This document shows, piece by piece, positions 2 to 42,203 of a stretch of 48,265 bases of DNA. A program made the translations under genes and the position numbers. Positions within the stretch are counted from its first letter, which is position 1. Every line of letters begins with the position of its first letter. The DNA comes from Nemertoderma westbladi. Taxonomy: Eukaryota; Animalia; Xenacoelomorpha. A model generated the notes under the pieces. That model saw nothing but the letters and a program-made list of their open reading frames with translations. It did no database searches and was not told the DNA's origin. The stretch spans positions 1-48,265 of the forward strand of contig JAUCBJ010009138.1 in assembly GCA_032718475.1 (NCBI GenBank), written 5' to 3'.

Positions 2-1546
2 AGTCTGGAATCGAGGTATGTTAAGATGTTGGATGCTCTCATCCTCGTCCCAATTATAAAGGTCTGCTTGAGTAGTAGCGAAGTTCTTTATAGCCACCAT
101 TTTCACTGACCTTATCCTATGTTCTCCTAGTTCGTCTTGTGGGGTGGACAACACGCCTACATAATAATCAGCTGTTATTGTAGATTTCCAAACTTGCATA
201 ATGCCTGACATGTTGAGCTTAGTTTGGAACTTGGGTTGTCCAGCAAATATATCTTCGGCTAGCTCTTTATCGATGAATGTTCCTGTGCTGCCGGAGTCCA
301 GGAGGGCGTTCACTACATAACTCCGTTTAGGTCCGTGCACCCTTACCTGCACCACAGGAAACTCTCGGATCCCTACATTGGAAGATGGCTCTTTCCAAGA
401 TGGTTGTCGTTCAGAAGTAGTTAGAGTGAAGTCGCTGTCTGTATCCTTTTCATATGTGAGTGCTCGATACACTGCGGTATTTATCATGTAACAGGATTCG
501 TTTTCGTCGGAGAACTCGTCTGTATAGAATCCTTCCATCTCAGATTGATCAGTGTCGTTCACATCACTGAATTGGACATGTAGCTCGGAATCACTTACCT
601 GATTCGGACTATTTCGATCGAATTCAGCGTGCAACAAGATATGATGTTTCGCACCACACTTTGCACACCTTATGTCAGAGAAACAGGTTCGCCGTTGGTG
701 TCCTTGTCTGAGGCAATTATAACATAACCGCTTATCCCACATGACTTCGCGTCTCTCCGTTAATGATTTCTTTAGAAATTCGTCACACCTATTCAAATGG
801 TGGGTCCCGTCACACAGCGCACATTTTGGTTTGATGTTACTTACCTTATTCTGAGTCACATTGTGTACACTGGCCTTTTCTTCGGGCTTTCTCACCTGAA
901 TTCTCTTGGGAGACGTGGGAGGAGTTTTTCTTACCTGTTCTCTCCTGTCATTTGCTCGAGACTTGAATTTACTTACCTGATCTTTAGGCATTTTATTGAC
1001 ATAATAAGATCTATCAGTGTCTTTCCCGCTATCTTCTCCTTGAGAAGTCTGGCTTTCGCCGTCGTCTGTATAACACACTGGTGTTACCTTTCTCCTAGAG
1101 ACGGGTTTTTCACTTACCTTGTTTTCCGGTGTCTTCTCTCGGGACTGCTTGAGGAGTTGCAATTTCACTTCTCCATCCAAGAATGACATGAGATCAGCCA
1201 TGGTAGGGTCTCGTCGTTGTTGTTCCATCATATATAGTACTTTCTTATCCCAGCGTGTACCTACTCCACCCTTCGGTAAAGTAGAAGCCACTGCTCTAAT
1301 AACCATAGTGTTCTGATACTCATGAGACTTGCCTAGCCAATCTAATTGTCTGCAGATCTCCTGGATCTCATCGGAAAACTCGATAATTCCGCTACTAATA
1401 AACTTTCGGGGCGCTACTAACTTTGCATACAAGTACCCAGCGATATTATTCCTATTACCATACCTGATGTTTAGTGTATCCCAAACTTGTCTTAATCCGT
1501 CTGGATGTCCAATAAACTTTAACGCCATTAACTTGGGAGATCCTTC
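2..1546 (-). pseudogene. gag-pol: BEL/Pao element A gag-protease polyprotein fragment (5'-truncated, runs off the left edge)
   Basis: Manual translation of the minus strand is open. It gives a DUF1759-type Gag (VWDTLNIRYGN...IIEFSDEI), three BEL-type knuckles (CALCDGTHHLNRC; CYNCLRQGHQRRTC; CAKCGAKHHILLH) and the aspartic protease motif ALLDSGSTGTFI. It is absent from the ORF track because there is no stop before the window edge. Confidence 0.9.
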
Positions 1547-1553
1547 CTTCCTA

Positions 1554-3623
1554 GGAACTACGCGAATGATACATATACGAGGACCCGCTGGTTCTACCCA
1601 CGTATTCACTCGAGCGTGTTCCGACGTGATTGATTATTCTTTTGAAACTCTTACGGAGATACAAAAGAAACTTTGACATGGACAATTCGAGCTCGCGCAG
1701 CGTTACGTCACCGACACCGAGCGCAAACCGGCCATGGGTATCGATGGATCAATGTTACCCCAACCTGTACTCGCAATGTTGTTTAACGAAAGAATTCTAA
1801 AAATCGGCTCAGCTGTTTATGGAGATCTCCAAAACGACTTCCGGAATATGGAGAACATTCCATACCCTTTCGTTGATACTCAGCTGATTGCTCCTTGGGC
1901 CGAAGGCCGAGGTTTCTTTCGCACCATGTATGCCAATACCCCCAGCGGCATTACTAAAGTACAACGGACATCCATCGGACATCTGGCCTTTCAAGAATAT
2001 GGTTGGAATTTCAAAGTTGGAAATCCTATAAATTACCAGCAAGTATATGGGGATCATTACTCTCGTTTATATTTTGATGGACCATTAACTGCGCCTGGTG
2101 CCGTATATAGCTTTATGAGTGTTCCCCTTCGTCCTTCCTTAGCTATATACACGATCTTTGAAAACGCAGCACTTGCCGGTTGGCTAGCCGATGTGTGCAG
2201 TCGTACCATACGCGCTCACCCGTTAATACTTGGAACTAAACTCGCCAAGTTAGACGAACACAATAAGTTCATACGTTTCGAATGTTTCCGGCGCTTTCTG
2301 ACTCCGTTCCGTAACGTCGATAGTCAGTTCAAGGATCGCGCGCTGACCAAGCTCAGTCTTAGAGACTCAGCTGCAGAGAAACTGAGTAGCGCTGGATTTG
2401 CCGTCTTTCAAGACGTTTGTATACAGAACCTACATTCATCCGTTATACAAAGACCCCGAATATCTACAGGTTATTCTGTCGTGGAAATACAGACAGTGGG
2501 TCCACTTACGGAAACCGACGCACCCACTTCGTCTATGCAGCTGGAGGATGAACCAGTATGCTTGGAATCAGAAGCGATTCAACCTACGGCTTCCCGGAGC
2601 AGTGACAATGATTATGTCATAGAGTGGTATCAAGGTCCACAGCGTCTCACAGCGTACGATTATCGACACGCCAACTACGTTTCCCGAAAACGTTGTCGAT
2701 TATGCGCATCGAGAGACCACTTCACTCCTCTAGACTCGAGCGTACCTTGTTCCTATTTCCTCGAACAACCGATGATGGAAATATATTGTGCTTATTGCCG
2801 GCTTAATAACTCTCATATATTTGCCGTCTGCCCACAATTTATGACTCAATGTCACTACTGCCAACTTAAAGGACACGAAAGTTACAATTGTCCCTTTAAT
2901 CGCGATTTAGAGAGCGTAGACGAGATGATCACCCTGCGATACATCCGAGCTTGGGAAGCGAACGCAGATTTACATTGCGAATCCAGACATCGCTATTACC
3001 CTGGACGAGCTTACGAGGGAGTTTACGCGTTCCATCCTTACCTATTCGCGTCGATTGAACAGAAAACACGCGTACCAAGTTACGAGTTAATAAAGCGTGT
3101 TGGTGAGTGTATTTCCACCAAGTTTGTCAGGAAATACCTTAGAAACGTTAACCCTAATGATATAACCACATATCACCTGATCAATTTTATCCGTCAGGAC
3201 CCTGAGTATGGCGACATTTTCGTGAACTCGCATCCTGAACTCCAGGAAGTATCTCGGCGCCCATATGAATATCGAACCCGAGAACGCGAGCTGGAGAGAA
3301 CCATTAAACCGAGAAAGTTCCTCACCACTCACGGTCCACCCACCGCTAGTGTCCAGACGACCCGTCAAGGACCCGTAGGAGCTGCTGTCCTGAGACGCGC
3401 TCTAAAGGCCGTTAGATCTCGCTCCACTGAGGTTGATATTAATCAACCAGGTACTTCGACCGGCGGGTATACCGATCGTAACCCTGCACCTTCTGATGCA
3501 ATTATATTGCACCCTTCGCCTAGGAGCTACAGCCCTCCTCGTAAAGTGGCTCGCCCCAAAGAGAAAAGGACTCTTGCTAGCCTCAAGAAACTGCGTAAAC
3601 GCCGTCCGCGCAAGAAAGACTAA
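1554..3623 (+). pseudogene. Element A accessory ORF: DEDDy 3'-5' exonuclease-like domain plus CCHC zinc knuckles and a basic C-terminus (N-terminus lost, in-frame TGA at 1674-1676)
   Basis: ORF 1734-3623 is in frame with 1554-1673. Motifs: LPQPVLAMLFNERILKIGSAVYGD (ExoII region), FVDTQ, SIGHLA, PLRPSLAIYTIFE (ExoIII region), CRLC..H..C, CAYC..SH..CP, CHYCQLKGHESYNC. The tail KKLRKRRPRKK is NLS-like. Clearly homologous to 15610-17661. Confidence 0.75.
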
Positions 3624-3693
3624 CTGTTTAGAGTATTTTTATATTTTAGAAATTGTGATTTTGTATATTTTATAGACTTAAATCCCATTTTCT

Positions 3694-3701
3694 GGGAGCG
3701 G
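3694..3701 (+). promoter_or_regulatory. Probable polypurine tract of element A
   Basis: GGGAGCGG lies directly before TGTAAAAG, about 70 bp after the accessory ORF stop. Confidence 0.55.
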
Positions 3702-4917
3702 TGTAAAAGCTTTTGTGGGATAACTGATTCGTTTGCCTTGTTGGCCAGTTCCCCCCCGGTCGCTAGAATACTCTAAAGGGATCTATAGCTAAAAATAGTG
3801 CAAGCTACCAGCTTATTGGCTGATTTGCTGTACGCAGGTATCTGGGCTCTGTTTAATCGGCCAACCAGCCTAGGGAGGTTGCGTCATAGCCTTGTTTTTG
3901 TATCTCCCAATAGAATTTGAGTTAGCCTTGATTTTGACCTATCACAGAGCTACTGAACTGAAATTTTCCTATCTCACTGCTCTTTCTCTGTGTTGAACGG
4001 GAGCTTCGTGGAATAAGGGTAGTTGGTATCCTCGTATAGAGAGTAGTCACGAGTTTTTCAAAGCCACGAAAGAACGGCTTTTTAGTGTTTTGTGCTTTCT
4101 GCTTTTTAGCTCAACACTAGTAGGTTTAATTATAAGGACATATATCCTTTAACTGCAATTTCGTAATCACTGGCGGCTGTGAATATCACTGGCTTTTAAT
4201 CACTTGAATATCTCACTGCTAAAAATTACCTGCTCAATCAATACTGTATACTGCTATTTGTTGTCGGTTATTCATTATATTTGTTGATGAATTATTATAT
4301 TGGAATAACGAGAAATAACCCCGAAAACCCAATATTCTTGATATACCGAAGGTAAGAGAGAAAGGTTACCAATAACGATTGTGACTTATGTTAAAGTGGT
4401 TTGAAGTGAATCTAATGTTATTTGATAGACCCTACATGAGTCAGTCTGTGTTCCTTTTATATGTGACTAAAATCAGTGAAGATTGGCAGATTAGTGTGCA
4501 GTATTGTGCAGCATTGTGTACGAGTGAGTCTGTTAAAGAAGCATTTCCTAAAGAATGCGCCATATATGTGAATTATAATTAAGCCATATCGTTGTGAGTA
4601 GTTTAAGTCATAACTCTGTTTATATAAATAAAGCGCCACGTCCTAAAGGAACTGTTAATATTCCCGAAGGTGAATAATATTGTCAGAGATTATATAATAC
4701 TGTCAGTCGAATAATACATTAGGCTTACATAGCAATAAAATTAAACCGTCGAACCCAATCTCCCGGGAATATCCAGCGGGTGAATGATCGCGCACAGATT
4801 GGTTTCGACTAGTGTAGTGAATCAAATACTTGTCATAGGCTAAAAAGCGATTTAATATCTAGAAGACATCTTAATTTGGCGGGTTAAACTGCCAAAGGTC
4901 TGAAAGCGCGAACAACA
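3702..4917 (+). mobile_element. Probable 3' LTR of element A (right end uncertain)
   Basis: Starts with TGT after the PPT. Contains TATATTGG...CCCAATATTCTTGAT (~4296-4342), resembling the promoter-like region of the element B LTR. AATAAA at ~4627 and ~4734. Candidate end ...GAACAACA at 4917. No partner LTR in the window. Confidence 0.5.
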
Positions 4918-6186
4918 TCCTTTAAAAATCAAACGAACACTGTGTAGGCCTACAGTATATGTTATAAATTCTTATCACCACTTGGTCAGTATAGAATAAA
5001 TTGAAAATATGCCCATCATAAAATATATTGGCTCAAATGATATTTTCGCACAAAATCGTATATTTAATAATAATGGATTGGAGAAGTAGATATTTCTGAT
5101 TGAAAGCTACAAATTTCAGATATCCAAATTAATATTTCAGTCAACCATGGACTTCAAGAATTTATTTCAATTGATTTAATATATTTGTGGTGATGGTTAA
5201 TGGAATTTTAAATTGCCTGAAATAAGTGATTCGAACGGCACAGTGCTTAAAATAACTTTTTAGGTGAGAGGCTGGCTGGCCTCCGACCTAACAAAGCAGT
5301 GTGAGTAACATTATAGATATTCCCATAGGATTCACTGGGAAGAGCTATTCAGCTGGTGGGGTAAAACGTTACAAACTAACAGTTGATGTTTGATTACTGT
5401 CTGGGATAGAGTGAGAGAGTAATAAATTTGGCAAGTAATATACTTCTGTGCAGTTTGGGCCTATCCATTCAATAAATAGTAGTAGCTTACTAGGCCCTCA
5501 TGAGCAACAGCAGCTGGTGTTTCTATCATGGAGTCTATGGCAATTTTTGTGTTTTGGGGATATTTTTCGAAATAAATAAAAGACACTTTAGTAATTTTTT
5601 TCAATACTTACTTCCACTACTGGGTTAACCTGCGTTGTTTGATATATCTTTCATTGATGGATGAGCTATAGGTTCGGACCTCGCAGTTTTCACTTTCCCC
5701 ACAGCAGTACAACTATCGCTCAACTTCATAATCGCTCACCACACTTACTATACTATAGAAAATTCACTAAACTATAATTAACCAAAGTAACTAAAAGTAC
5801 AACACGAAAACCATTCCAATGTTTAGTTAGTGCATATCGGCTTTCAATAATCGTGACATGAGTTCTTGTTTTGTCATTTAAATAATAATACACATAATCT
5901 TCAACTTCTTTCTATTAGTTATCTATTCTAAATCATTATTAAAATTTATCTGAATTACCGGAAAACAGTCAATTTTAAGTCGTTTTCACTATCTTCCGAG
6001 TTAAACTCAGTACATTAAAATTTAACATAACTTATTTCCAGAAATCTTTACAACTCTGCGAACCAGGGATTAATCAGTATATTAAACCCAGGCTACTACC
6101 CACACGATGATGCTTTCCAACCTCTCGCTGGCAACGCTGCAACTTCTATGATACGCCACATAGAACATGTAAGATACATTTAGATA

Positions 6187-6440
6187 TTAATTAATTAATT
6201 AATTATATAGCGGTTTTCTATGCTCAGCATACTCAAAGCTTTTTTATTATTCCCAGCCAGGTTCAGGTTCCCAGCAATAATGCAAGGGTCCTATTATATA
6301 TACAGCTGAGTTGGTGTACAGGGACATAGTAGGGACACAATAGTGGGAAATTTCTACATAAATTTGATGGATTCGAACTTATATCACCAAATGCAATTGT
6401 GAAAACAGGATCAAGCGCTGTATCCACTCAGACACTGGCA
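6187..6440 (-). mobile_element. Degenerate tRNA-derived SINE with an L2-like 3' tail
   Basis: On the minus strand: A-box-like TGTCTGAGTGG, B-box-like AGTTCGAATCC (6369-6379), then tail GCTTTGAG...GAAAACCGCTATATAA followed by (TTAA)n. Confidence 0.55.
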
Positions 6441-7603
6441 CATTCATGTGCATGGCTGGATTTATGAATAGGACAACTAGGTCATGGCCTCGGGACCTCC
6501 CTCCAGGAGGGGGCCCCCCTGCTTCATTACATTTGCACTTCCATTAAAAGCCCATTAAGGAATATGACCTGACCAGTAGTGCCCCTCGTGATTCAGTAGT
6601 AGGCAGATTTGCCTGCTAGCATATTATTAAATGACAACATTCCAGGTTTGTGGTTTCCCAAAATTTCGATAACCTATTCCACTGGTGATTGTTGAATTTT
6701 CTTCATTGTTTTGTTGGCTAGGTTCAGAAACTAAACAAAAATGCTTAATGGAACTGGATAGATTGCATGATTAAAATGATATGTTAGGTCGACCCTGATT
6801 AGCAGAAAAGTTGAACTGGCCGTAGAGAACCCGAAGACTACTCCTTTCTTTATCCATCAATGCGCGATTCTTATCAGCAATATCTTTCATATCAATTGGT
6901 TGCATTTTATGAGTATAGTTGTGTAGAACGATCCCAATCTGATTTGTAGATTCTTGAGCTATTTTGTTGCTGACATAGTTGAACTGTATACTTTCCTCAG
7001 TGCGAACTGAAGCTTTATAGTTTTTATTTCTTGTAGATTCAAATATTTTGTACCACATTATAGTATCTCATTGACATGAGTTGTCGTAATGCCCTGTATT
7101 TCCTTATTGACGATGAGATAGGAAACTGCTGTATCAAATGATTGCATTCACACAAAACTTCCTTGAAAATGAAGTACTATTGTCGTCACCTTCATTCAGT
7201 CCATAGATACATTCTGAAAAGCTGTAGCTTAATATGTATTATCCTCCCTCGTCGGTTTCAGAAATATTTCATGGTTTGGGCATGATCCTAAAGATATGCG
7301 CAGTGTTCGCGGTATTTCAACTTTTCATAACGCGAGTTGAATATTTTTTGTATTTATTTAAAATGATTATTCCGATATCACTACTGGGTGCGGGACCATG
7401 GGTTTTGGGCACACTCAATGAACTGGGGCGATTTATGGCCGAATATTGGGGCGACTTACAGGGTACGGGATTCATTTCATGTATATAAGGGCCAGGGGGG
7501 GAAGGAAAAGTTAAGCAGTATTCAGGTTTACCTGATTACTATTAGGTCTAGCCAACTTCCTGCTGCCTGTAGAGGTGGATTTGGTAACTCGCTAGGTCTA
7601 AAG

Positions 7604-8420
7604 GACAAGGACTGCCCTTAGCGGTCCCTGGCCAACAGCAGTTATTATGAGCCTGAAAAGGACATCGGAAAGGCTGCTGCTTGTGTCAGGGATTTGCGAC
7701 GGGAAACGACGACAGACCCCGTAGCCAAGCCGTACTGGTTCTCGATTATCGTTCCCTTCGGGGTTCGTGAGGGGTGGGACGGACACGCGAAAGGGTCGAC
7801 CAACTAACAAGAGGAAGGGTTTGACGAGGACTGCCCTTAGCGGTCTCTGGTCAACAGCAGTTATTACGAGCCTGAAAAGGACATCGGAAAGTCTGCTGCT
7901 TGTGCCAGGGATTTGCGACGGGAACCGACGACAGACCCCTTAGCCTAGCCGTACTGGTTCTCGATGATCGTTCCCTTCGGGGTTCGTGAGGGGTGGGACG
8001 GACACGCGACGGGGTCGAAAGACAAAGGACTGGACTCTACTGGCCTACCGACTGTTCGGAGCAGTTTCTCGGCTGCCGAAGCGACTACGAGCCTGAATAA
8101 GGACTCGGAAAGCCTAGGTGGTTGGGTCCTGCGATGAACCGACGGACCCCTAGCCAAGCCGTACTGGTTCTCGATGATCGTTCCCTTCGGGGTTCGTGAG
8201 GGGTGGGACGGACACGTGAACGGGTCCACCGACACGACAGACTCCTAGCCAAGCCATACTGGTTCTCGATGACCGATCCCTTCGGGGTTCGTGAGGGGTG
8301 GTACGGATACGCGACAGAGTCTACTGACTGGACCGACCCTTAGCCAAGCCATACTGGTTCTCGATGATCGATCCCTTCGGGGTTCGGGAGGGGTGGTACG
8401 GACACGCAACAGGGTCGACC
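7604..8420 (+). repeat. Tandem GC-rich repeats within the LTR (two ~219-bp units plus shorter units, five hairpin cores)
   Basis: Core CCGTACTGGTTCTCGATGATCGTTCCCTTCGGGGTTCGTGAGGGGTGGGACGG at ~7730, 7949, 8159, 8254 and 8349. Confidence 0.9.
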
Positions 8421-8567
8421 GACACCGACACTACGGCACCAAGACTAGGACCGAGGGAAAATCTGGGGAACATTAGTTAGGCTAAAATCTGAGAGAACAG
8501 TGGGTAATTAAATAATTTACTGTAGGGATTTATATTGTCGTGTATTATTATTGTGAATAATTTGGTG

Positions 8568-8602
8568 TATATTGGTTTGGGGAAGCCCAATTTATTCTCA
8601 AT
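8568..8602 (+). promoter_or_regulatory. Candidate LTR core promoter (TATA-like plus Inr-like)
   Basis: TATATT at 8568-8573 lies about 26 bp before TTATTC (TYAKTY Inr-like, A at 8594). This coincides with the segment complementary to the PBS position. Confidence 0.45.
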
Positions 8603-8800
8603 CAAGGTTCAACTGTAGGGAAGTTACATTAAAGAGTATATCCAACCAATGCAGCTTTTTCTCAACCGCAATCTTGCATTTAAGAACGGGTTCCTTATCC
8701 ACAATCAATATCCGGTGACTGGCCGGGATTCCGTGGTCTGTAAAGTTCCGCCTCCAGCATCGGCGTTTTCCCCCATGGTGTCGGGAATAACGGCAACAAA

Positions 8801-8812
8801 ATTGAGAATAAA
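8801..8812 (+). promoter_or_regulatory. Primer-binding-site position: non-tRNA, complementary to LTR 8591-8602
   Basis: ATTGAGAATAAA lies 2 nt after the LTR end, has no TGG, and is the exact reverse complement of TTTATTCTCAAT. Confidence 0.7.
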
Positions 8813-9005
8813 ACGCGGCCAACTTCAACTGGTGGAAGTTGGGAATCCTGCAATACTCTTCAAACTCTCTCCGTGCTTACCCAGCACCCACTACGAGGAA
8901 ACTCTGGTATTTGAGTTAAGACAAAGCCGTGGTTTAATCAATCGACAAACTCGATCAAATAAACTCGTAGTCGGCAGATCACATATAGAGAGTCGTTAAC
9001 AGGGA

Positions 9006-9197
9006 ATGGAAGTATCGATCACACCCATTGACATAATTCAAGTTGAGCCAGGAATCTGGCACGTCGAGGTTGAAGTACAAGGAACGAACGTCGGACGATT
9101 CAGGATTACCGTTCGAGTAGTCCAAGCCGAGTACGAGAGCTACGAAGAACTATTCTATGACATCGCATATCTCGCTATCAACGAGGCGCTAGAATGA
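9006..9197 (+). CDS. 63-aa small upstream ORF overlapping the gag start (ATGA)
   Basis: Good start context (GGAATGG). Alternating hydrophobic beta-strand pattern followed by an acidic amphipathic helix. Its TGA overlaps the gag ATG at 9194. Confidence 0.4.
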   Translation: MEVSITPIDIIQVEPGIWHVEVEVQGTNVGRFRITVRVVQAEYESYEELFYDIAYLAINEALE

Positions 9198-12100
9198 CAA
9201 CGAACAACGTCTCCGACACCGATGAGATGGACACCCGCACAGACTCGGAAGCCGACGAGGTACCGAATATCAAGAACATGACCCGTCGACTAGGTGCTCT
9301 CAAAGGCGGAGTCACTCGAGCGTATCAGCGTATAGAGAAACAACTCAAGAGAGTCGAAACTCCCCTCAACGAGATACAAACTCAGCTTCAGAATATCCGA
9401 AGTATCTTACAACGATATGAGAGGATGATACAGGCGTATCAAGAACTCGTTCCCTCCACCGATCAGGTAAACTACCCCAGGTTAGAAGAACATGTTGTAC
9501 ATCTAGATGAGTTCCGCAAACAACACCGGAGGACCCTCAGCCTTGTGAGAGGCTACGAAGAACAGTACTACAAGAGAGCTGAAAGAACAGACGCAGAATC
9601 GGTGCGAACCTCCAGCACCAGGACAGCAATACATCGAAAGAGAACGGGGTCCTCTAGGAACCAGCACTCCAGCGCTAGGAGCGCGGTGTCCGGTTCAGCA
9701 CACAGCTCTCAAGGGGGTCAGCCACTCCGGTCAGAACAGAAGGCATTAGCCCTCAAAGCTCGGATGGAAGATGAGTATGTTCAACTGCGAACCGAGCAAG
9801 ATGTATTAGCCGCCGAAATGCAAAACGAGAGGCCGAACAAGCGGCCGAACGGCAGGTTGAACAACGCGAACAGGAGGCTGAACAACATAGACAAGAGGCC
9901 GAACGGCAGGCCGAACAGCATAGACGAGAGGCCGAACAACGTGAACAGGAAGCTGAACAACGTGGACGAGAGGCCAAACAAGAGATCGAACAATGTAAAT
10001 GGGAAGCAGAAATGCGTAAACAACACGCCGAGGCCCAAGCGATTCTCATCCACAAAAAGAATGCGGATATTGCGAAACTCGCGGAATACGAAGCCGCGCT
10101 TTTAGAACGAGATATTCAAATATACGAGGACTGGGAAAGGGGTATAGACCAGAACTATGAACCAATACCGATACCAGAATTAGAGAAGTCCTTAACGACA
10201 CCGGCGGTGAAACCTCCGAAACCCGAGTTCCCGCCTACCATACAGTCTACGTTATTGGCACAAGCACCGGTATTCCATCCCCCACCGGTTACGCTTAAGA
10301 ATGAGGAACCTTATATCCCAGCCAACCCCACGGTCCCGAGCGTTCCCAAGTACGAGCCTGAAAAGGACTCGGAACGGGTCGCTACTCCTCGATCCAACAA
10401 CCCGTTTACATCCACACCACAAATCCGTAGCCGCGTCATCATTAAAACTCCACCTATCATCGATCCATCGTGCATGGGAGAGAGTGCCAATAACTATAAC
10501 CCTCCTAGTCATTCCGGTTCAGACGACGTTGGCATTATCCAGGCATTAGAGAACCGACTGGCCATGCCCAAGATGGAGATCCGCACCTTCGAAGGAGATC
10601 CCGTCGATTACCTCAGATTCAAGAAACGGTTTTTCGCGCAGATTGGATCAACGGACATAGCCGACGCACAAAAGCTAGTATATTTATCCCAATACCTGGG
10701 CGACAAACCACGCCGGATTATTGCATGCTTCGAGGGAGGAGCTCATGAGGCATACTATGACGCATGGAAAACTCTAGATAAAAGATACGGAAATATCGGG
10801 ACTATAATTAATAAAACTCTCGAGAAACTGATACAGGACGCGGGATCCCTAGGGGACCCACAGAATATCCAAGAATTCTCAGATTCGATGAAGGATGCCT
10901 ACTACACTCTAAAACCATTAAATAAGGAGGAACAAGTAAACAACATTCTAAACCTCCGACAGATCGCCCGGAAGTTCCCCGGATGGCTACAAAGTAAGTG
11001 GGCGTATAAATGCGTAGATCTCCGGCGCAGACACCCAGATCGATGATCCCAGTTTCCTCGAAATGTCGGCATTCCTGGACGATATCTCCGAAGCCATGAA
11101 TGACTCGATGTTCTCGAAACAGAGTCTCGCCAAGTTAGACGGAATAGAGAGCAACTCCAGGAGTAAGACGCCCACTCAGAAACCGAGATTCCGTCCCCCT
11201 CCGGTGAGTACGATGGCCATCACCATGGCCGAGGATTCCGATGACGAAGACTACGAGGAACCGACATCAGCCGAGGAATGGGCGTGTTACCTTGCGAATT
11301 GGGCACCCGAAAGGGGAGGCATCACAAACTCCCTTCTCTGTCTCTTCTGCGGAGAGAAACATAAAGTGGAATTCTGCAGGAAGTTCCAGTTTGCCGAACT
11401 CGTCCCACGCTTCGAGGCAATAATGAAACACCGAGGATGCTTCCGGTGTCTTGGAACAGGTCACTATGTTCGGGATTGCGACCAAAGATCATGCTGTGCG
11501 GTCTGTAATGACCTACGTCATCACACACTCCTCCACATCCCCACGAACTTTGACTTCACCACCCTCCCCTTTCGGATTGAAGCCAAACGAAGAGGAGAAA
11601 CGAACCACGTTTCTAAAGGAACCCGGACGACCCAACGGAGAGAAACCAACCCGTTTAAAACCTCCACCGATGCATCACAAGTAACAAATATCTCAGCCAC
11701 GATCAACCTTATAAATCGCCGTTACATGGTCTTCGCCAAAGTAATCCCAGTAAGAATTCAAGGGGTCGGGAAATCCTTGACAACGCTCGCGTTCCTTGAT
11801 AACGGGTCGGACGGAACCATCATCGACCGGGATTTCCTCGAGCAAATCGGCCTAGACTATGAACCTTGCAAACGGCCCATACAAACTATCACCGACCATA
11901 GAGAAGTAGAATCCGGGGAGGTGCAGCTCCAGATGGAAGGAGTAATGAAGGGCTACGAGACGGTTAAGCTGACAATCAAGAATGCCTTGGTACACACCGA
12001 TCTCCGAGTGCGGTTCCGACAATCAGCCGAATACGCCCCTCTCATACAGTTAGACCGGGAAGATGTAGACCTAAGGTGCCTGCCGTTGGACGTAAACCGC

Positions 12101-12511
12101 ATCACCCTATTGATCGGACTTGACACACCGGAATTACACATACCCACCGGAGACGTCGCCCGATCTATAAAGCAGGATGACGGCTTTTACGCTGAACGAA
12201 CAATAATGGGATGGACACTCTGCGGCATCAAGGAAGAGACTACAGACACCTATACATACCTTCCTAAATGTCAGATTAAAGAGAATGCAACCTCCGTGGG
12301 TTATTGTTCGGTGACCGACCTCCACTCACCATCACGGCGACACACCACGTTTGTAGCGAACCGAGCCACGGAGATAAAACAGTGCACCGGCCGAGAACAG
12401 TGGCACCATGTAAATGGGAAAGAAAACCCAGCTGACTTATCGAGCAGAGGCGCCACCCCACGACAGCTCGGTAAAAGTAAACTCTGGCTTACAGGCCCGA
12501 AATTCCTATAG
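9194..12511 (+). pseudogene. gag-pol: Element B gag-protease fused to an RNase H C-terminal remnant; frameshifts at ~9822 and ~11042; RT deleted at ~12320
   Basis: Coiled-coil Gag and DUF1759-like FEGDPVDYLRF...KLVYLSQYL. Knuckles CLFCGEKH..C, CFRCLGTGH..C and CAVCNDLRHHTLLH. Protease AFLDNGSDGT and RTIMGWTLCG, followed directly by FVANR...WHHVNGKENPADLSSRG. Confidence 0.92.
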
Positions 12512-14245
12512 CAGCCACAATTAACATGGAGTACCCGATTCGATCCCGAACTCGATAGCGGAAAATACTCCGAGGACGACAAAAAAGGCCGTAAAGTCCA
12601 TAGAAGCAGCGCAGTGGAAATCTATAGTTGTCTGACCGAGCCTGCAAAGGACTCGGGTAGGCACTATAACGTCGCGACAATCACTCAACCAGCGGCGTCT
12701 TTACATCTGTTGATCGAGCGAACTTCATCAATGAGACGGCTCATCCACCACATTATAACCCTTCGCTACTTCCTACGGTGGAAAGACAACAAGCCGATAG
12801 TTCAACGGAGTATACAAGAACTCATTATCGCGGAGAAGTGTATTGTTGGATATGTCCAGAGAGAAAGTTTCCCCGATGAGTGAGAACAACTCAGTGCGGG
12901 CAAGACCTTGAAACCGGACAACCCAGTCTACCAACTGAGACCAATGATGGGAGAGGACGGACTGATTCGACTGAATACCCGGATGGCAAACGCCCCGGTT
13001 GAATATGAGGTTAAATACCCAGCGCTTCTGCCCGGAATGTCGACACTAGCCAAGCTATTAATCCAACAGTGCCACGAGGAAAACCATCACGCAGGACAGA
13101 ACTGGATTATAGCTAATATACGACAAAGGTATTGGATCACCCACATCCAGCCACTGATCCGGAATGTGTTAAAACGTTGCTTTCCCTGCAGAAGATATCT
13201 AGCGCCACCACTCACACAAAAGATGGCCGACTTACCAGCCACCCATCTACAGTCCGATTCCCCACCGTTCTATGTAACCGGAGTAGACTGTTTCGGACCG
13301 TTTACAATCATCGAGCGACGATCCAACATCAAATGCTGGGGAGCCATCTTTACCTGCCTTAGGTCTAGGGCAATCTACCTAGACATCGTGGTGAACCTTA
13401 CGCAACACGCATTCATCAACGCCCTGCGTCGGTTTGTGGCGAACAATGGGACATGTCTTCATATGTACTCCGATAAAGGTACAAACTTTGTGGGAGGAGA
13501 AAGAGAACTTAGAGAGGCGATCGAGGGATGGTTTACCAAGGACACCGCATCCCAAGTCTGGAGGGACCACCATATACAGTGGCACTTCCAAACACCCTTA
13601 GCACCCCATACGAGCGGGGTATGGGAGAAGCTAATCGACTTAGTAAAACGATCTATGCGCGTCGCATTAGGAGACACCCGCGTAACCCATGACACCCTCC
13701 GCACAACATTCTGCGAGATCGCGGCTACCCTGAACAACCGGCCCATTGTCCCTATCCGCGACGACCCCACAGACCTGGAGCCTCTCACTCCTAACCACCT
13801 ACTGGGAAGACCCAAAACCCATATTCTCCCAGAGATGATGTTTCCGGATCCCAACGATATCGCGAGACATACAAATTGGAAGAAGGCCCAAGCGTTGGCG
13901 GCGCATTGGTGGAGAATCTGGGCCCAGGAGTACCTCATAACCCTCCGGACCAGGAGGAAGTGGAACAACACCTATAGGAATGTCGCGGTTGGCGACATGG
14001 CGCTAGTGAAAGAAGATCTCAAAGACCGCGTCCACTGGCCTGTGGCGCGAGTCGTGACAATACACCCGAGCAAAGACGGACTTGCGAGGACTGTGACGAT
14101 ACGAATGGCAAAGGGCCACTACCAACGCCATATCCAGAGGCTGTGCCTTCTTGAAGGCAATGACAGTGGTGACTCTACGAGAGGTGATATGTTCCCTACT
14201 CAGGATCCTGCTGCAGACATTGGTGACAATGCTAAACCCGTGTAA
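12512..14245 (+). pseudogene. pol: Element B integrase region (same frame, read through stops at 12509-12511 and 12881-12883)
   Basis: HHCC finger (HEENHH...CFPC), DDE core (GVDCFGP, SDKGTNFVG, GVWEKL), PLTPNHLL, and the BEL C-terminal domain (WAQEYL...WPVARV). Confidence 0.93.
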
Positions 14246-14518
14246 ACCCTTCTCATACTGTTGACAAACTCTTTTAAAATGTGATTTATCGACAATGAAA
14301 ATGGACACCCTTAAACCAACTGTAACCACGCAATGGTATTTGTGTTTCCTCGTGTGTTATGTGGAGTCCAGCGTCACCCTGCAGATGTTTCGACTGATGC
14401 AGTGTCGTTTATGTATTGTTAACCCTGATTTTGGTCAACAGGACCAACGACATTGGATTATTGGAAATGGTAAAGATTTGAAGTGGAATTCATTGTATTC
14501 ATTGTAGTATGTTATGTT

Positions 14519-14945
14519 GTCCGTTGCGTGCGCAGTTCGGGGCGTAGGCGGTGTAACTAGTCCAGCTGTAGATCCCGGATTGCCGCGCAACACCCCCTCT
14601 ATCCCGTTATTCTGGTGGGTCCATGGTGCATCCACATGACTTCGACGATAGAGGTTTTAAGTTTCTCAGTCGCGCTATTCTGGTGGGACCGTTCCGTGGA
14701 TTTTGGGGCGTAGGCGGTGTAACTAGTCCAGCTGTAGATCCCAGAATGTTGCGTAACCCCATCCCACATGACTTCGTCGGCTGAGCTTTATGTTGCTGGG
14801 AGTGTTATTCTGGTGGGTCCCTGGTGCATTCCACGTGACTTCACTTCCAGCGTCTTCATTGTCCGTTACGTGTGCAGTTTGGGGCGTAGGCGGTGTAACT
14901 AGCCCAGCTGTAGATCCCAGATTGCCGCGTAACACCCCTTCCACA
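14519..14945 (+). repeat. Three imperfect direct repeats between integrase and the accessory ORF
   Basis: GGGGCGTAGGCGGTGTAACTAG(T/C)CCAGCTGTAGATCCC at ~14539, 14705 and 14881. TATTCTGGTGGG also occurs three times. Confidence 0.85.
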
Positions 14946-15485
14946 ACGAAAATTTCCCAAAGAAGATGATTGAATGTAGTTGGAAATGATGAAAAGAAAC
15001 AGACGACATTATTATAAACTGAATGGTGACGCGTATGCTGATGAAAATGTAATGATGCGCACCCTGGTGCTGCGCTTATAACAAATGATGATAGCCGGGG
15101 GGCTATAACCCCAATGATGATGTGGAAATAAATGAAATGTGAAATGGTGGAAATAAATGATGAAATGTGTTGAAATAAATGAAATGTGAAATGAAATAAT
15201 AATGAGAAATGAAAAAAGACAAAAAAAAGGTATAAAAATGTAAAAAGAAAAGAATTGGAAAAAAGAAGAGGACATAAAAAGTCAAAACTGGTTGGATATT
15301 AATGTATAGCTATAGTAACTGTAAATGCTGAATGTATTAGCAATAAGATGGTAGATGCCTATATAGCAATGTTGTTTAATAAACTGAATTAAAAATAAAC
15401 TGAATTATTCTGCAATCACTATAGTATCAGACTTTCTAGACTTATAATTAACTGATATAAATTTGCAACGGACATAATTGTAAAT

Positions 15486-17686
15486 ATGGACCCAAATCGC
15501 CAAATTATCGGCGAATTACGTAATACGATAGATCTACTGCCTCAACCTGGATCCACAACCTGGAGCCCCTAACTTTGATACAAATTGGAGCACCCTGATA
15601 AATGAGAATGTGCGAGTCGTCAAATTCTCCGGGCGAGAGGGACCGGATTCCCGGAATCTACGAGCCCTCCGGTTGGCCGATGCTAGTACGAGACTGAAAA
15701 GAACTCGGAATGCAAAGGCTACCGGAGGGGATGAGTTGTCGTACTGGGATACGTTCTGGCAAAGCGTCTACAAATCCCAATGTTTGATATACGACAACGA
15801 GGGAAACGCAACGCCCACCTCGAAAGCGATGACGTTGGCGCGATGTCAAAGTTTCGTCGACGACAAGAGTACGTACTGGGGAAACCTAGCGGAGTGTACG
15901 GCGACGCTACGAGAGGAACGTATATCGGTTATCCAGAATCGCGACGACTACCAGGAGAAGTACGAGACGAAAGAATACGGTCGATCCTTGGTCGTCGTCT
16001 TCGGTACCCTGGACGGTTTGGTGTTGGTGTGTCGAATATTTCCGACACCCAGACAGGAGGTACGGACAGCCGGAGCGATCTGGCTACTACCGCCGGAGAT
16101 CCAAAAGATCCTCTTCGACTTCGACGTTATTAAAATCGGGTCGGATATAAAAGCGGACGTCCGTAACGACTACGCGAACGCTCCTTTCGGAAGAGACCGT
16201 AAAGAAGATCTCAATGCCATTAGTCACTGCATCGACACCCAGACACTACTAGCCTGGTTACGATCCGCCGAATTCATGCGAGGATTCCGCGAGGTGAGAC
16301 AGACGAAATCCGGGATCGGCTACCTCGCTGTGCTAAACGGCGGCATCGACTTTAAACCTCAGAAATTCCAGGACTATAATAAGATATATGGTGGATACCC
16401 GGGATTAGAAATAAGGAGCGAGCGAGAGAGTCGATGGAAGGACGTTGACAGGAGGTGGACGATACACCAAAGGTGGGAGAATCCCAATCGACGGAACTAC
16501 ATCTACGTTGTTATGGAGCCCTACACCGTCGCTAAGTTTATATGTAAAACTCTCGATAACCTCATTACGGCGGTTCCTCTTTCCTTTGTCGACTACGACT
16601 GGAACGAGGTTATAAACAACGCGTTCAAAGCGGTCGAGAATATTACACTGGGAGAGACAAAAACGTTCACCGTTATCGATTCCTGGGACGAGAACGGACC
16701 TTACAACATCCCTACGATTACCGATCTTCTCGGTGCGGAGGAGCCTCTGATTTCTTCGGAAGGGGAAGAACTATGGCTACATGAGGGCGTTCTACTGTCT
16801 ACCCCAAAGCGACCACTCGAGCCGGAAGCTGCGTATGAACCGGCCGCCAAATGGGTTGCCTCGGCCGAACCTGCGACGGAAGCAGGTGCTTCCACCCCAC
16901 TCGGCTCCGGTAGCCCTGCGAGGGAGTTAGTCACCACCTCCGCGTTGAGCGACTTTGGCGACATATGCCAGAGGTTATCCCCATATCCTTTCCCGGGTGG
17001 CGAAGACTGGTCGTCGGAGATTCCGAGTACCAGCAATCAACAGACCCGCTCAGCGATACTGGTCGAGAAGGGTCCTAGCGCTACGCCGACTCCCGAAGAT
17101 CTCCTTGGAATTCCTCCGTCGAAAACCCCGGCACCTCTGCGCCGACCAGCAGTGACAACTACCCCCTCCGTTCCACAGGATCCTATGCGATTAACCCGAT
17201 GGTACGCCGAGCAGACCGAATGGATCCACCGCCAGAAACGGTCGTCCGAGATGAGACTGGCAGGACATAAAGAAGGTTATCGGAGCGAGAACCTACTACG
17301 CCAAAGCCCAGCCTTCCGCGGGCTACCGGCCACCGCGAATATTCAAAAGAGCGACCGACGACTCGAGTATTACGTCGGCGTCTCAATTCCGATATTCCCC
17401 GGTCGAGAGATGCAGTTGGAGATATGCGCAAACTGCGGTTCGGAGCAGTGCCCACGTGGTAGACGAAATCGGGTTACCGATTCGTGCCTACAGCTCCTCG
17501 GGATCCTGTATTGCCCATACTGCGCGACATCGGGACATGATGTCTCGGTTTGTCCAATCCTTTATAACCTCTGCACAACTTGCGGTTTCCGTGGACATTC
17601 CACTAGCCCCCGCTGCTATATAAAATGTCCTACAAAAGACGTTACCACTATGGGAAATTAGGTCATGTTCGAAACATACGCAAACG
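15486..17686 (+). pseudogene. Element B accessory ORF: DEDDy 3'-5' exonuclease-like domain, Pro-rich linker, zinc knuckles
   Basis: Main frame 15610-17661. Probable true ATG at 15486 with a 1-nt frameshift at ~15549. ExoI IYDNEG, ExoII VIKIGSDIKAD, CIDTQ, GIGYLA, ExoIII W...YVVME, then CPYCATSGHDVSVCP and CTTCGFRGH. Truncated by the deletion into the 3' LTR. Confidence 0.78.
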
Positions 17687-18190
17687 GGGGTGGTACGGAT
17701 ACGCGACAGAGTCTACCGACTGGACCGACCCTTAGCCAAGCCGTACTGGTTCTCGATGATCGATCCCTTCGGGGTTCGGGAGGGGTGGTACGGACACGCA
17801 GCAGGGTCGACCAACACCGACACTACGGCACCAAGACTAGGACCGAGGGAAAATCTGGGGAACATTAGTTAGGCTAAAATCTGAGAGAACAGTGGGTAAT
17901 TAAATAATTTACTGTAGGGATTTATATTGTCGTGTATTATTATTGTGAATAATTTGGTGTATATTGGTTTGGGGAAGCCCAATTTATTCTCAATCAAGGT
18001 TCAACTGTAGGGAAGTTACATTAAAGAGTATATCCAACCAATGCAGCCTTTTCTCAACCGCAATCTTGCATTTAAGAACGGGTTCCTTCTCCACAATCAA
18101 TATCCGGTGACTGGCCGGGATTCCGTGGTCTGTAAAGTTCCGCCTCCAGCATCGGCGTTTTCCCCCATGGTGTCGGGAATAACGGCAACA
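17687..18190 (+). repeat. 3' LTR of element B (5'-truncated, 504 bp)
   Basis: Collinear with 8295-8798, about 6 substitutions by eye. Confidence 0.95.
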
Positions 18191-18995
18191 CGCAGAGATG
18201 GGATTTGATTTAAGGTGGTAAAAAGTATTTTTTCAATATTTTCTGGAAACCTTCCCATTACATTTAAAATTCGATGTAAAACAAATATGTATTCGAGCTG
18301 TACAAGTGGAACCTCAAATATTACATATTTCTTAAAGTAATGGCTCATGGGAGCATTTTTGAAAAAGAAAAAGTTTTTTTTCCTAAAATGGCCACACTTA
18401 CTTGAAATTTGCACTATTTGAGGTTCCACTTGTGTAGCTCAAAATTCAGTATACGGGTCGAAAATTTCATGACAATTGGATTTACAGATCTCGAGAAAAA
18501 GGAACGTGAATAAAATTAGGTCCGCAATATCGCGGAAGGAGTAAATGGAGCTGAAAGTCAAAATATATAGAATGTGCCATATTAATACATATACATATGA
18601 GTTTTGAAAGATTATGATTCATGTGATGTTAGTTGGATTTTCGGAATGAACATAAAATTCTGCTCTAGTGGGGAAATCTGGGAATAAAATTTCAAAATAA
18701 ATGAATTTCAAAAAATGATCTTATACGAATTACAAATGTCAATGCTGCATATATGCTGCATATATGCTGCATATAACAAAGACCAATCCGCCAAGGTAAT
18801 ATTTCATGAGCATAATTCAAACAAGAAAAGGGAATAACTGGAACATGTACTGGAAGTAGAACATGCCTCTTTAAAAAATGAGCCAAATTTTGAAAAATTG
18901 GCAAACCTCCGCTTTGATAAATTTCACCGAAAAATAATGCTTATAACTTTTGCATGCTTGGCATAAACCGTAAACATATATTATATTTGTTATAG

Positions 18996-19267: not shown

Positions 19268-22200
19268 TATGAACAATACTGTCTGATATCCTGGAGTAAA
19301 ATAGTCCTATGTACAGTAAAAATCGCATAGACATAAACAAAAAAGGTCTTATGTACAATACTGCCTGATATCCTGGAGTAAAATAGTCCTATGTACAGTA
19401 AAAATCGCATAGACATAAACAAAAAAGGTCTTATGTACAATACTGCCTGATATCCTGGAGTAAAATAGTCCTATGTACAGTAAAAATCGCATAGACATAA
19501 ACAAAAAAGGTCTTTTTTACAATACTGCCTGATATCCTGGAGTAAAATAGTCCTATGTACAGTAAAAATCGCATAGACATAAACAAAAAAGGTCTTATGT
19601 ACAATACTGCCTGATATCCTGGAGTAAAATAGTCCTATGTACAGTAAAAATCGCATAGACATAAACAAAAAAGGTCTTATGTACAATACTGCCTGATATC
19701 CTGGAGTAAAATAGTCCTTATGTACAGTAAAAATCGCATAGACATAAACAAAAAAGGTCTTATGAACAATACTGCCTGATATCCTGGAGTAAAATAGTCC
19801 TATGTACAGAAAAAATCGCATAGACATAAACAAAAAAGGTCTTATGAACAATACTGCCTGATATCCTGGAGTAAAATAATCCTATGTACAGTAAAAATCG
19901 CATAGACATAAACAAAAAAGGTCTTATGTACAATACTGCCTGATATCCTGGAGTAAAATAGTCCTTATGTACAGTAAAAATCGCATAGACATAAACAAAA
20001 AAGGTCTTATGAACAATACTGCCTGATATCCTGGAGTAAAATAGTCCTATGTACAGTAAAAATCGCATAGACATAAACAAAAAAGGTCTTATGAACAATA
20101 CTGCCTGATATCCTGGAGTAAAATAGTCCTATGTACAGTAAAAATCGCATAGACATAAACAAAAAAGGTCTTATGAACAATACTGCCTGATATCCTGGAG
20201 TAAAATAGTCCTATGTACAGTAAAAATCGCATAGACATAAACAAAAAAGGTCTTATGTACAATACTGCCTGATATCCTGGAGTAAAATAGTCCTTATGTA
20301 CAGTAAAAATCGCATAGACATAAACAAAAAAGGTCTTATGTACAATACTGCCTGATATCCTGGAGTAAAATAGTCCTTATGTACAGTAAAAATCGCATAG
20401 ACATAAACAAAAAAGGTCTTATGAACAATACTGCCTGATATCCTGGAGTAAAATAGTCCTATGTACAGTAAAAATCGCATAGACATAAACAAAAAAGGTC
20501 TTATGAACAATACTGCCTGATATCCTGGAGTAAAATAGTCCTATGTACAGTAAAAATCGCATAGACATAAACAAAAAAGGTCTTATGTACAATACTGCCT
20601 GATATCCTGGAGTAAAATAGTCCTTATGTACAGTAAAAATCGCATAGACATAAACAAAAAAGGTCTTATGTACAATACTGCCTGATATCCTGGAGTAAAA
20701 TAGTCCTTATGTACAGTAAAAATCGCATAGACATAAACAAAAAAGGTCTTATGTACAATACTGCCTGATATCCTGGAGTAAAATAGTCCTTATGTACAGT
20801 AAAAATCGCATAGACATAAACAAAAAAGGTCTTATGTACAATACTGCCTGATATCCTGGAGTAAAATAGTCCTTATGTACAGTAAAAATCGCATAGACAT
20901 AAACAAAAAAGGTCTTATGAACAATACTGCCTGATATCCTGGAGTAAAATAGTCCTATGTACAGTAAAAATCGCATAGACATAAACAAAAAAGGTCTTAT
21001 GAACAATACTGCCTGATATCCTGGAGTAAAATAGTCCTATGTACAGTAAAAATCGCATAGACATAAACAAAAAAGGTCTTATGAACAATACTGCCTGATA
21101 TCCTGGAGTAAAATAGTCCTATGTACAGTAAAAATCGCATAGACATAAACAAAAAAGGTCTTATGTACAATACTGCCTGATATCCTGGAGTAAAATAGTC
21201 CTTATGTACAGTAAAAATCGCATAGACATAAACAAAAAAGGTCTTATGTACAATACTGCCTGATATCCTGGAGTAAAATAGTCCTATGTACAGTAAAAAT
21301 CGCATAGACATAAACAAAAAAGGTCTTATGAACAATACTGCCTGATATCCTGGAGTAAAATAGTCCTATGTACAGTAAAAATCGCATAGACATAAACAAA
21401 AAAGGTCTTATGTACAATACTGCCTGATATCCTGGAGTAAAATAATCCTATGTACAGTAAAAATCGCATAGACATAAACAAAAAAGGTCTTATGAACAAT
21501 ACTGCCTGATATCCTGGAGTAAAATAGTCCTATGTACAGAAAAAATCGCATAGACATAAACAAAAAAGGTCTTATTTACAATACTGCCTGATATCCTGGA
21601 GTAAAATAGTCCTATGTACAGAAAAAATCGCATAGACATAAACAAAAAAGGTCTTATGTACAATACTGCCTGATATCCTGGAGTAAAATAGTCCTTATGT
21701 ACAGTAAAAATCGCATAGACATAAACAAAAAAGGTCTTATGTACAATACTGCCTGATATCCTGGAGTAAAATAATCCTATGTACAGTAAAAATCGCATAG
21801 ACATAAACAAAAAAGGTCTTATGAACAATACTGCCTGATATCCTGGAGTAAAATAGTCCTATGTACAGAAAAAATCGCATAGACATAAACAAAAAAGGTC
21901 TTATTTACAATACTGCCTGATATCCTGGAGTAAAATAGTCCTATGTACAGAAAAAATCGCATAGACATAAACAAAAAAGGTCTTATGTACAATACTGCCT
22001 GATATCCTGCTGGAGTAAAATAGTCCTATGTACAGTAAAAATCGCATAGACATAAACAAAAAAGGTCTTATGTACAATACTGCCTGATATCCTGGAGTAA
22101 AATAGTCCTATGTACAGAAAAAATCGCATAGACATAAACAAAAAAGGTCTTATGTACAATACTGCCTGATATCCTGGAGTAAAATAGTCCTATGTACAGT

Positions 22201-26160: not shown

Positions 26161-26269
26161 TGGCGCATCCTTTACTTCCACAATGATCGGACCACTCACA
26201 ACAGGACAATATCTCTCAACTGATATAACCCCATTGAATAATCTAATATCCTCAGTGAAACTTGTATAA
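26161..26269 (+). CDS. Beta/gamma-crystallin-family gene, last coding exon (Greek key 4)
   Basis: ttcctttcag|, in frame: NGASFTSTMIGPLTTGQYLSTDITPLNNLISSVKLV*. Confidence 0.85.
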
Positions 26270-41100: not shown

Positions 41101-41170
41101 TTCATTATTCAATTTGTTCTTTATACCATCAACATTCCACCAAAGTATCCTAATAAGATGATCTATACAT
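38114..41170 (-). pseudogene. LINE ORF2 (APE endonuclease plus RT) with frameshifts at ~40745 and ~39062
   Basis: WNVDGI, IVFLSE, GDFN and SNH (APE). GPDGI, NYRGISL, FVDFKTAFD, GLRQG, LLMDDT and YVYLG (RT). C-terminal CACG...EEH...C. Confidence 0.9.
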
Positions 41171-41268
41171 GGCTGTCCTAGAAAAACTGTTTGGGCTCAC
41201 GGTATAAGACAGCGTCACCACGCTTAACTGAACGGGATCTCCAGTCAATCGAGATTACAAATCCTGCA

Positions 41269-42111: not shown

Positions 42112-42203
42112 TGTCTTTTCCGTAATACGGTATAATTATTAATTATTGCATATATTTCAGAATTTATCCGGTATTAACAAATACAAAAAAGGCGGACATA
42201 CCG

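What the first reader, a model, noticed from the sequence alone, without database searches (positions are those of the whole stretch)
8591..8812. Apparent Tf1-style self-priming in a BEL/Pao element: PBS is complementary to its own LTR, not to a tRNA
Seen: after the 5' LTR end (CA at 8798) and a 2-nt spacer comes ATTGAGAATAAA, lacking the TGG that pairs with tRNA CCA. It is the perfect 12-nt reverse complement of LTR 8591-8602, which sits at an Inr-like TTATTC about 26 bp downstream of TATATT. Known: fission-yeast Tf1 primes with the first 11 nt of its own RNA annealed to the PBS, while BEL/Pao elements are generally regarded as tRNA-primed. Inference: independent evolution of self-priming. 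Speculatively, the encoded 3'-5' exonuclease could trim the primer.
Basis: partly seen in the sequence, partly recalled or inferred. Interest (0 to 1): 0.85.

Follow-up and report, generated by a model that had tools for sequence, protein, structure and literature searches.

The report
Self-priming BEL/Pao retrotransposon, intron-less form
This jumping gene has no tRNA landing site: the site instead pairs over 11-12 bases with a stretch of its own terminal repeat, and distant relatives keep such pairing with different letters (most of them only across a predicted splice junction), so the group likely starts copying itself with a piece of its own RNA.

Summary
Observation confirmed. A young, defective BEL/Pao element (7304-18190, TSD CGCAG) has a non-TGG PBS (8801-8812) that is the exact complement of LTR 8591-8602; 6 of 20,000 LTR shuffles do this. 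Family contigs show no TGG form among the rows displayed; only 8812 varies, so the kept duplex is likely 11 bp. The covariation test passes: 18 of 19 distant relatives with a readable LTR and leader pair 11-15 nt with their own LTR, 14 different cores, and 0 of 258 cross-family pairs reach 11. In 16 of the 18 the match exists only across a predicted GT-AG intron junction in the LTR; this element and 2 others carry it contiguously. Self-priming is therefore likely a trait of a wide aquatic-animal BEL/Pao group, not an invention of this element. Not shown: the transcription start, the cut, any RNA. The exonuclease idea is not supported: relatives with the signature lack that ORF. No paper found describes it; the scan noted it before on other genomes.

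The parts
7299..7303 (+). left target-site duplication (CGCAG)
   Evidence: same 5 letters at 18191-18195
7304..8798 (+). 5' LTR, 1495 nt, TGTT...AACA
7482..7489 (+). best TATA-like word of the LTR (rival promoter, 1110 nt before the primer site)
   Evidence: sequence
7604..8430 (+). internal repeats of the LTR (units of 219 and 95 nt)
8577..8590 (+). 5-bp hairpin with 4-nt loop directly before the primer site
   Evidence: one contig of run X5 has two changes that lengthen it to 7 bp (tables 4, 7, 8)
8591..8602 (+). predicted self-primer site (12/12 complementary to the PBS; conserved core 8592-8602)
8628..8633 (+). ATTAAA poly(A)-signal-like word, 25 nt after the primer's 3' end: places the primer in R
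8779..8795 (+). predicted hairpin at the end of U5, its loop resembling part of the PBS
8801..8812 (+). non-tRNA PBS after a 2-nt spacer; 8812 varies in the family
8819..8842 (+). leader hairpin (8-bp inverted repeat) after the PBS
9161..12511 (+). gag (coiled coil, DUF1759, Cys-His knuckles) and protease, broken over several frames; RT and most of RNase H are missing
12884..14245 (+). BEL/Pao integrase (Integrase_H2C2, DUF5641); best database relatives 36-42% identical
15532..17661 (+). extra ORF, likely DEDDy-type 3'-5' exonuclease domain plus Cys-His knuckles, cut off at its 3' end
   Evidence: weak to moderate; no Pfam hit
17687..18190 (+). 3' LTR remnant (last 504 nt); PPT and LTR front deleted
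18191..18195 (+). right target-site duplication
1677..3623 (+). element A: homologue of the extra ORF (28% over 113 aa), next to an inverted gag-protease piece at 2-1633 (-)
3702..4796 (+). element A: probable 3' LTR after a purine tract (right end uncertain: 4729, 4796 or later); donor-like GT at 4352, acceptor-like AG at 4705-4706, AATAAA at 4734
   Evidence: inference, PBS of A not seen

Best explanation
This BEL/Pao family likely primes reverse transcription with its own RNA instead of a tRNA: LTR bases 8592-8602, predicted to lie within a few bases of the RNA's 5' end, would pair with the PBS at 8801-8811 and be cut free to give the primer. Shown: the complementarity, its conservation in the family contigs displayed, and its covariation across distant families. 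Inferred: transcription starts at or just before the site (best guess the A at 8589); the RNA loops so that the 11-nt stretch pairs with the PBS; RNase H of an intact helper copy cuts after 8602, as shown for Tf1; minus-strand strong-stop DNA then copies the spacer, U5 and the 25-45 nt of R left before the poly(A) site and jumps to the 3' R. Plus-strand copying of the primer would rewrite the PBS each cycle, which would explain why PBS and LTR change together. In most relatives the same 11-nt primer exists only after a predicted LTR intron is spliced out; the intron would survive through the unspliced 3' LTR copy, and this element would be an intron-less form (loss is likelier than never having had one, but unproven). 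This copy itself is non-autonomous.
For: 12/12 complement, 6 of 20,000 shuffles. Runs X2, X3, X5 on 8575-8925: 40 of 45 substitution rows and 12 of 15 indel rows displayed, none inside 8591-8602 or 8801-8811; 8812 A>T in 24% (X2) and 35% (X3) of depth with no answering change at 8591. Relatives from 79 metagenome loci: 19 had LTR and leader readable; 18 pair 11-15 nt with their own LTR, none starts with TGG; for 8 of them the LTR end is fixed by the direct repeat itself (7 exact, 1 approximate) and all 8 pass. In the 17x17 matrix every diagonal cell is 11 or more; of 272 off-diagonal cells the 14 between families with the same core reach 11-12, the other 258 reach at most 10; shuffled PBS reaches the observed length in 0-1 of 200. 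The minimum is 11, the Tf1 primer length (PMC7175516). 14 of 19 have AATAAA/ATTAAA 6-127 nt after the primer's 3' end. A pyrimidine-A lies within 4 nt before the core in 11 of 16 (background 0.37; post hoc). Folding of RNAs starting at 8560-8592 gives the duplex with probability about 0.9.
Against: No RNA data, so no start site, splice or cut is observed. The lack of family variants in the 22 paired positions is weak alone (P about 0.09 if variants were uniform; 5+3 rows hidden). Whole-fold energy is not unusual (z -0.75 and -0.37). An RNA starting at 7517 does not form the duplex in the ensemble, one starting at 8430 only with probability 0.25. 11 of the 19 LTR ends were inferred by me, partly from the match itself. 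L073 fails the rule (6 nt; a 12-nt contiguous match exists only with a 6-nt spacer). A 5'-terminal primer would need a first exon of only about 6-10 nt in the spliced relatives, and 3 relatives have their best TATA 134-167 nt before the core. This element sits on a long branch, so the relatives are evidence by homology of 34-40% integrase identity only.
Confidence: 0.6

Rival explanations
1. Still self-priming, but the primer is internal or supplied in trans: transcription starts upstream (for example about 30 nt after the TATA at 7482), and the 11-nt stretch, capped on its 5' side by the 8577-8590 hairpin, is cut out of a long RNA or comes from a separate short LTR transcript whose 3' overhang is trimmed.
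For: Best TATA at 7482; the hairpin abuts the core and one X5 contig lengthens it by two concerted changes; spliced relatives would otherwise need very short first exons; many cores begin with C or T, poor +1 bases.
Against: Long RNAs fold the duplex poorly; pairing stops at 11-15 nt in all 19 passing cases (this element and 18 relatives), as expected if the primer's 5' end is near; the hairpin is not seen before the core in most relatives; relatives lack the exonuclease ORF.
Confidence: 0.28
2. The duplex is a structural or regulatory stem (packaging, translation, PBS masking) and priming uses a host RNA such as a tRNA fragment, or a site elsewhere.
For: Internal tRNA fragments prime some copia elements (PMC6317226, passages); the host's tRNAs could not be compared (no genome; no tRNA in the window).
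Against: 15 different cores (this element and 14 in relatives) each match only their own LTR, always 0-5 nt after the LTR end, where priming must start; a host RNA would not track them.
Confidence: 0.09
3. Chance match in an AT-rich stretch after decay of a tRNA PBS in a dead copy.
For: Both 12-mers are AT-rich; the copy is defective.
Against: Shuffles; the LTRs differ by 1.2% only; the family shares the PBS; relatives show the same rule.
Confidence: 0.03

Closest known systems
Tf1/Tf2 of Schizosaccharomyces pombe, Tj1, and the Tf1/sushi-Tcn1 group (Ty3/gypsy chromoviruses)
   Same: No tRNA PBS; PBS complementary to the element's own LTR-derived RNA; 11-nt duplex; Tf1 is cut by RNase H between bases 11 and 12 (PMC7175516, PMC4600332, PMC6317226: passages).
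   Different: Different superfamily (BEL/Pao integrase, DUF1759 gag). Start site and cut are not shown here. In most relatives the primer spans a predicted splice junction, which these passages do not describe for Tf1.
Belpaoviridae (BEL/Pao) as described by ICTV
   Same: LTRs, gag-pol layout, metazoan host, protein families.
   Different: The ICTV profile (PMC8742986, whole text) gives an 18-nt PBS for tRNA-Arg or tRNA-Gly and tRNA priming; this element and 19 relatives have no TGG PBS. LTR of 1.5 kb exceeds the quoted 0.2-1.2 kb.
TAR lineage of plant Ty1/copia (Houba, Osr-1)
   Same: Self-priming predicted from sequence in a non-gypsy superfamily (PMC6317226, passages).
   Different: Copia, plants; shows that self-priming has arisen more than once, which lowers the surprise of a third origin.
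DEDDy ORF3 of bdelloid rotifer LTR elements Juno and Vesta
   Same: Extra ORF after pol with a DEDDy-like exonuclease and Cys-His motifs (PMC5408684, passages).
   Different: Those are other LTR lineages; no link to priming was shown; here the first acidic motif reads D-x-Q in this copy and D-x-E in element A and three homologues.

Membership tests
BEL/Pao (Belpaoviridae) | LTRs TG...CA with short target-site duplication | tested here: met
BEL/Pao (Belpaoviridae) | BEL-type gag (DUF1759, Cys-His knuckles) and integrase with DUF5641 | tested here: met
   (E 1e-13, 3e-27); 120 best integrase relatives all carry PF18701
BEL/Pao (Belpaoviridae) | pol order PR-RT-RH-IN and RT phylogeny | tested here: inconclusive
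   PR, RNase H tail and IN in that order; RT deleted in this copy
BEL/Pao (Belpaoviridae) | 18-nt tRNA-Arg/Gly PBS (ICTV description) | tested here: not met
   no TGG after the LTR. The element is filed as BEL/Pao-related by protein homology only; it does not fit the ICTV description of priming
BEL/Pao subclade (Sinbad, Suzu, Dan, Flow ...) | placement with named reference elements | not testable with these tools
   no named references held; hosts of named relatives are fish, echinoderms, cnidarians, a hemichordate, a mollusc, a crustacean; long branch, unrooted quick tree
Tf1/sushi group | Ty3/gypsy chromovirus proteins | tested here: not met
   proteins are BEL/Pao type: not a member
Tf1-type self-priming (mechanism) | PBS complementary over about 11 nt to own LTR, covarying between families | tested here: met
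Tf1-type self-priming (mechanism) | the complementary stretch is the first 11 nt of the RNA | not testable with these tools
   no RNA run listed; motif hints conflict
Tf1-type self-priming (mechanism) | RNase H cut at the 3' end of the duplex | not testable with these tools
   needs biochemistry
DEDDy 3'-5' exonucleases (extra ORF) | DnaQ-like fold with ExoI-III acidic motifs | tested here: inconclusive
   Atlas features point to PF01612 (score 0.91, 38% of members, recognition below the tool's 2300 mark); motif columns align; no Pfam hit; model pLDDT 35

The most novel reading that the evidence does not exclude
A broad BEL/Pao lineage of aquatic animals has replaced the tRNA primer with an 11-nt self-primer that, in most families, is assembled by host splicing of an intron in the LTR; the intron is handed on through the unspliced 3' LTR, and intron-less families such as this one arise when that copy is spliced too. 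This would be a third origin of self-priming and the first case in which splicing licenses reverse transcription.
Probability: 0.5. Interest if true: 0.88.

Novelty: new variant of a known kind. Interest (0 to 1): 0.75.

Why it matters
BEL/Pao replication has never been worked out and is assumed to be tRNA-primed (ICTV profile). If the reading holds, that assumption is wrong for a large part of the family, annotation tools that require a tRNA PBS miss these elements, and self-priming arose in all three LTR superfamilies. The splice-junction form ties the start of reverse transcription to host splicing and gives sharp, cheap predictions (junction reads, start sites, strong-stop ends). This element is the simplest test case: a many-copy family with the primer ready-made in DNA.

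Tried and rejected
No genome is held for the window, so no survey of sister families in the host. No RNA holder listed; this is no evidence on expression. Viral-contig scan found no relative. Word-index search with the extra ORF found nothing; HMMER on representatives found 5 proteins; the fold had pLDDT 35 and was not searched. Rfam scan of 3600-9300 gave one chance-level hit; ARAGORN found no tRNA. 60 of 79 loci were left out of the count because the 5' LTR, its donor half or the leader is off the contig, or because they repeat a family already counted; 14 such leaders were printed with an LTR end chosen by eye and none starts with TGG. A spliced primer inside this element's own LTR was looked for and not found (best 5 nt). 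The careful tree did not finish; only the quick, unrooted tree was read. Exonuclease trimming as a requirement was rejected: 17 of 19 relatives have only 112-531 nt between integrase and 3' LTR (2 contigs end first) and no locus of 79 matches the ORF. Element A's PBS could not be seen. Two papers asked for by id (Saci-1; Tf1 primer retention) are not held.

Full report
1. Observation. The window holds an LTR element on the + strand. A 504-nt direct repeat (8295-8798 and 17687-18190, 6 differences) ends in AACA on both sides. The five bases after the 3' copy recur at 7299-7303, directly before TGTT, so the 5' LTR is 7304-8798 (1495 nt) and the 3' LTR has lost its front together with the polypurine tract. 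After a 2-nt spacer, 8801-8812 is the exact reverse complement of 8591-8602. Six of 20,000 dinucleotide shuffles of the LTR give a 12-nt complement; the empirical rate in the window is 103 of 31,150 positions. The proteins are BEL/Pao type: DUF1759 gag, aspartyl protease, integrase with DUF5641. RT and most of RNase H are missing, so the copy is non-autonomous. The best integrase relatives are 36-42% identical and, where named, come from aquatic animals.

2. The family in its host. Three DNA runs of one coded organism hold the element; 1048, 791 and 584 contigs lie on 871 bases, so there are many diverged copies. On 8575-8925 at a 2% threshold, 40 of 45 substitution rows and 12 of 15 indel rows were displayed; none falls in 8591-8602 or 8801-8811, and none makes a TGG. 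Position 8812 is T in 24% (X2) and 35% (X3) of the depth with no matching change at 8591, which points to an 11-bp duplex, 8592-8602 with 8801-8811. Alone this is weak (P about 0.09 under uniform variation; variation is clustered in 8614-8745). A diverged contig in X5 keeps the primer site while the bases after it differ.

3. Covariation across families. One scan of metagenome contigs with an integrase alignment gave 79 loci. In 19 loci the LTR and leader were readable. Eighteen have, 0-5 nt after the LTR end, a stretch of 11-15 nt complementary to their own LTR; none has TGG. In 16 the target exists only if a GT-AG intron of 75-488 nt is removed (contiguous match 5-7 nt), each exon giving 4-10 nt; in L005 and L007 it is contiguous, as here. 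For 8 loci the LTR end is fixed by the direct repeat and all pass (6 spliced, 2 contiguous); for 11 I inferred the end, which is partly circular. L073 fails the rule. Counting shared cores once, relatives give 14 different cores. In the cross matrix all 17 own pairs reach 11 or more, the 14 pairs between families with the same core reach 11-12, and the other 258 reach at most 10; shuffled PBS reaches the observed length in 0-1 of 200 trials per locus. The primer's 3' end reads purine-A-pyrimidine in all 19 sequences tabulated, and 14 of them, this element included, have AATAAA or ATTAAA 6-127 nt further on, the layout needed if strong-stop DNA is to jump by the rest of R.

4. Mechanism. Shown: complementarity, conservation, covariation. 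By analogy with Tf1, whose first 11 bases pair with the PBS and are cut off by RNase H (PMC7175516, passage), I infer a looped 5' RNA cut after 8602. The start site is open. For a near start: pairing never runs beyond 15 nt; a pyrimidine-A lies within 4 nt before the core in 11 of 16 (background 0.37, post hoc, related families not independent), here at 8588-8589; short RNAs fold the duplex with probability about 0.9, an RNA from 7517 does not. For a far start: the best TATA is at 7482; a hairpin at 8577-8590 abuts the core and is lengthened in one contig; spliced relatives would need first exons of about 6-10 nt. Intron retention has a simple explanation (inference): after a cut in exon 2, everything upstream is copied from the 3' LTR, which need not be spliced; if it is, an intron-less family results and still works. 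In the quick tree L007 and L005/L060 lie apart among spliced families, which fits repeated loss, but this element is on a long branch and cannot be placed.

5. The exonuclease-like ORF. 15532-17661 and 1677-3623 are homologous and resemble DEDDy exonucleases with Cys-His knuckles (not confirmed by Pfam or by a fold). Such ORFs are known from rotifer LTR elements (PMC5408684, passages). No locus of 79 matches it, and 17 of 19 relatives have only 112-531 nt between integrase and 3' LTR, so it is not needed for the priming signature.

6. Element A. Its gag-protease piece is inverted against its extra ORF, and a probable 3' LTR starts at 3702 after a purine tract; its gag is only 27-29% like that of this element. 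Its PBS is not in the window. A donor-like site at 4352 and an acceptor-like site ending at 4706 (weak pyrimidine tract) would give a junction with the same end motif, a TA two bases before the core and AATAAA 21 nt later, as in the spliced relatives.

7. Literature. ICTV profile (PMC8742986, whole text): 18-nt tRNA-Arg/Gly PBS, replication poorly understood. PMC6317226, PMC4600332, PMC7175516 (passages): self-priming in Tf1/sushi/Tcn1, Tj1 and, predicted, TAR copia. PMC3118150 and PMC554778 (term counts and passages): no mention of PBS or priming. PMC8220671, PMC2774666, PMC6934838, PMC4558846, PMC3286476, PMC3601003, PMC6338049, PMC9094657 (passages): nothing on BEL self-priming. Ten searches (listings only for papers not named above) found no paper describing self-priming or an LTR splice-junction primer in BEL/Pao. 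Subscription papers, Repbase reports, GyDB pages and all supplements were not seen and may hold such a remark. Notes of this scan report the same signature on other genomes; they are leads, not support.

8. Verdict. Real feature; tRNA-independent self-priming about 0.88 (0.60 near-5' primer, 0.28 internal or in trans). New variant of a known kind; interest 0.75.

Noticed in passing
family variants at window 8797-8814 (runs X1, X2, X3, X5): A subfamily carries the LTR-end/spacer/PBS unit twice, 38 nt apart, with a 12-bp inverted repeat that covers the second copy's start (tables 5c and 7); the 8812 variant may belong to it. Could be a fold-back copying error or a PBS decoy.
   Followed up: partly
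L024, L029, L036 and window 8783-8790, 4804-4810: U5 often holds a 6-9 nt look-alike of the element's own PBS some 10-75 nt before the LTR end (seen by eye); not counted against chance.
   Followed up: no
L073:90-300: 12-nt contiguous LTR-leader complement with a 6-nt spacer, outside my rule; may be a third intron-less family.
   Followed up: partly
window 1480-1750: Junction between an inverted gag-protease piece and the truncated exonuclease-like ORF: element A seems to have a large internal inversion or is two elements head to head.
   Followed up: partly
window 7604-8430: G+C-rich internal repeats (219 and 95 nt) in U3, each unit with a small hairpin; they make the LTR unusually long.
   Followed up: no
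window 8579-8588 and 4320-4330: Both LTRs have a G/C-run word resembling a Rel/NF-kB site just before the candidate start (resemblance recalled, not tested).
   Followed up: no
window 14517-14945: Three imperfect repeats of about 80 nt between integrase and the extra ORF.
   Followed up: no
window 19268-22915 and 26258-34501: Satellite arrays of 82 nt (44 copies) and 23 nt (over 350 copies, with a 100-N gap); the long 'ORFs' there are artefacts.
   Followed up: no
window 38114-42135 (-), 46592-48265 (+), 35907-36302: Two non-LTR retrotransposons (endonuclease + RT between GA-rich repeats; RT + DUF6451 with inverted fragments).
   Followed up: no
window 18292-18443: 40-nt inverted repeat pair, MITE-like.
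   Followed up: no
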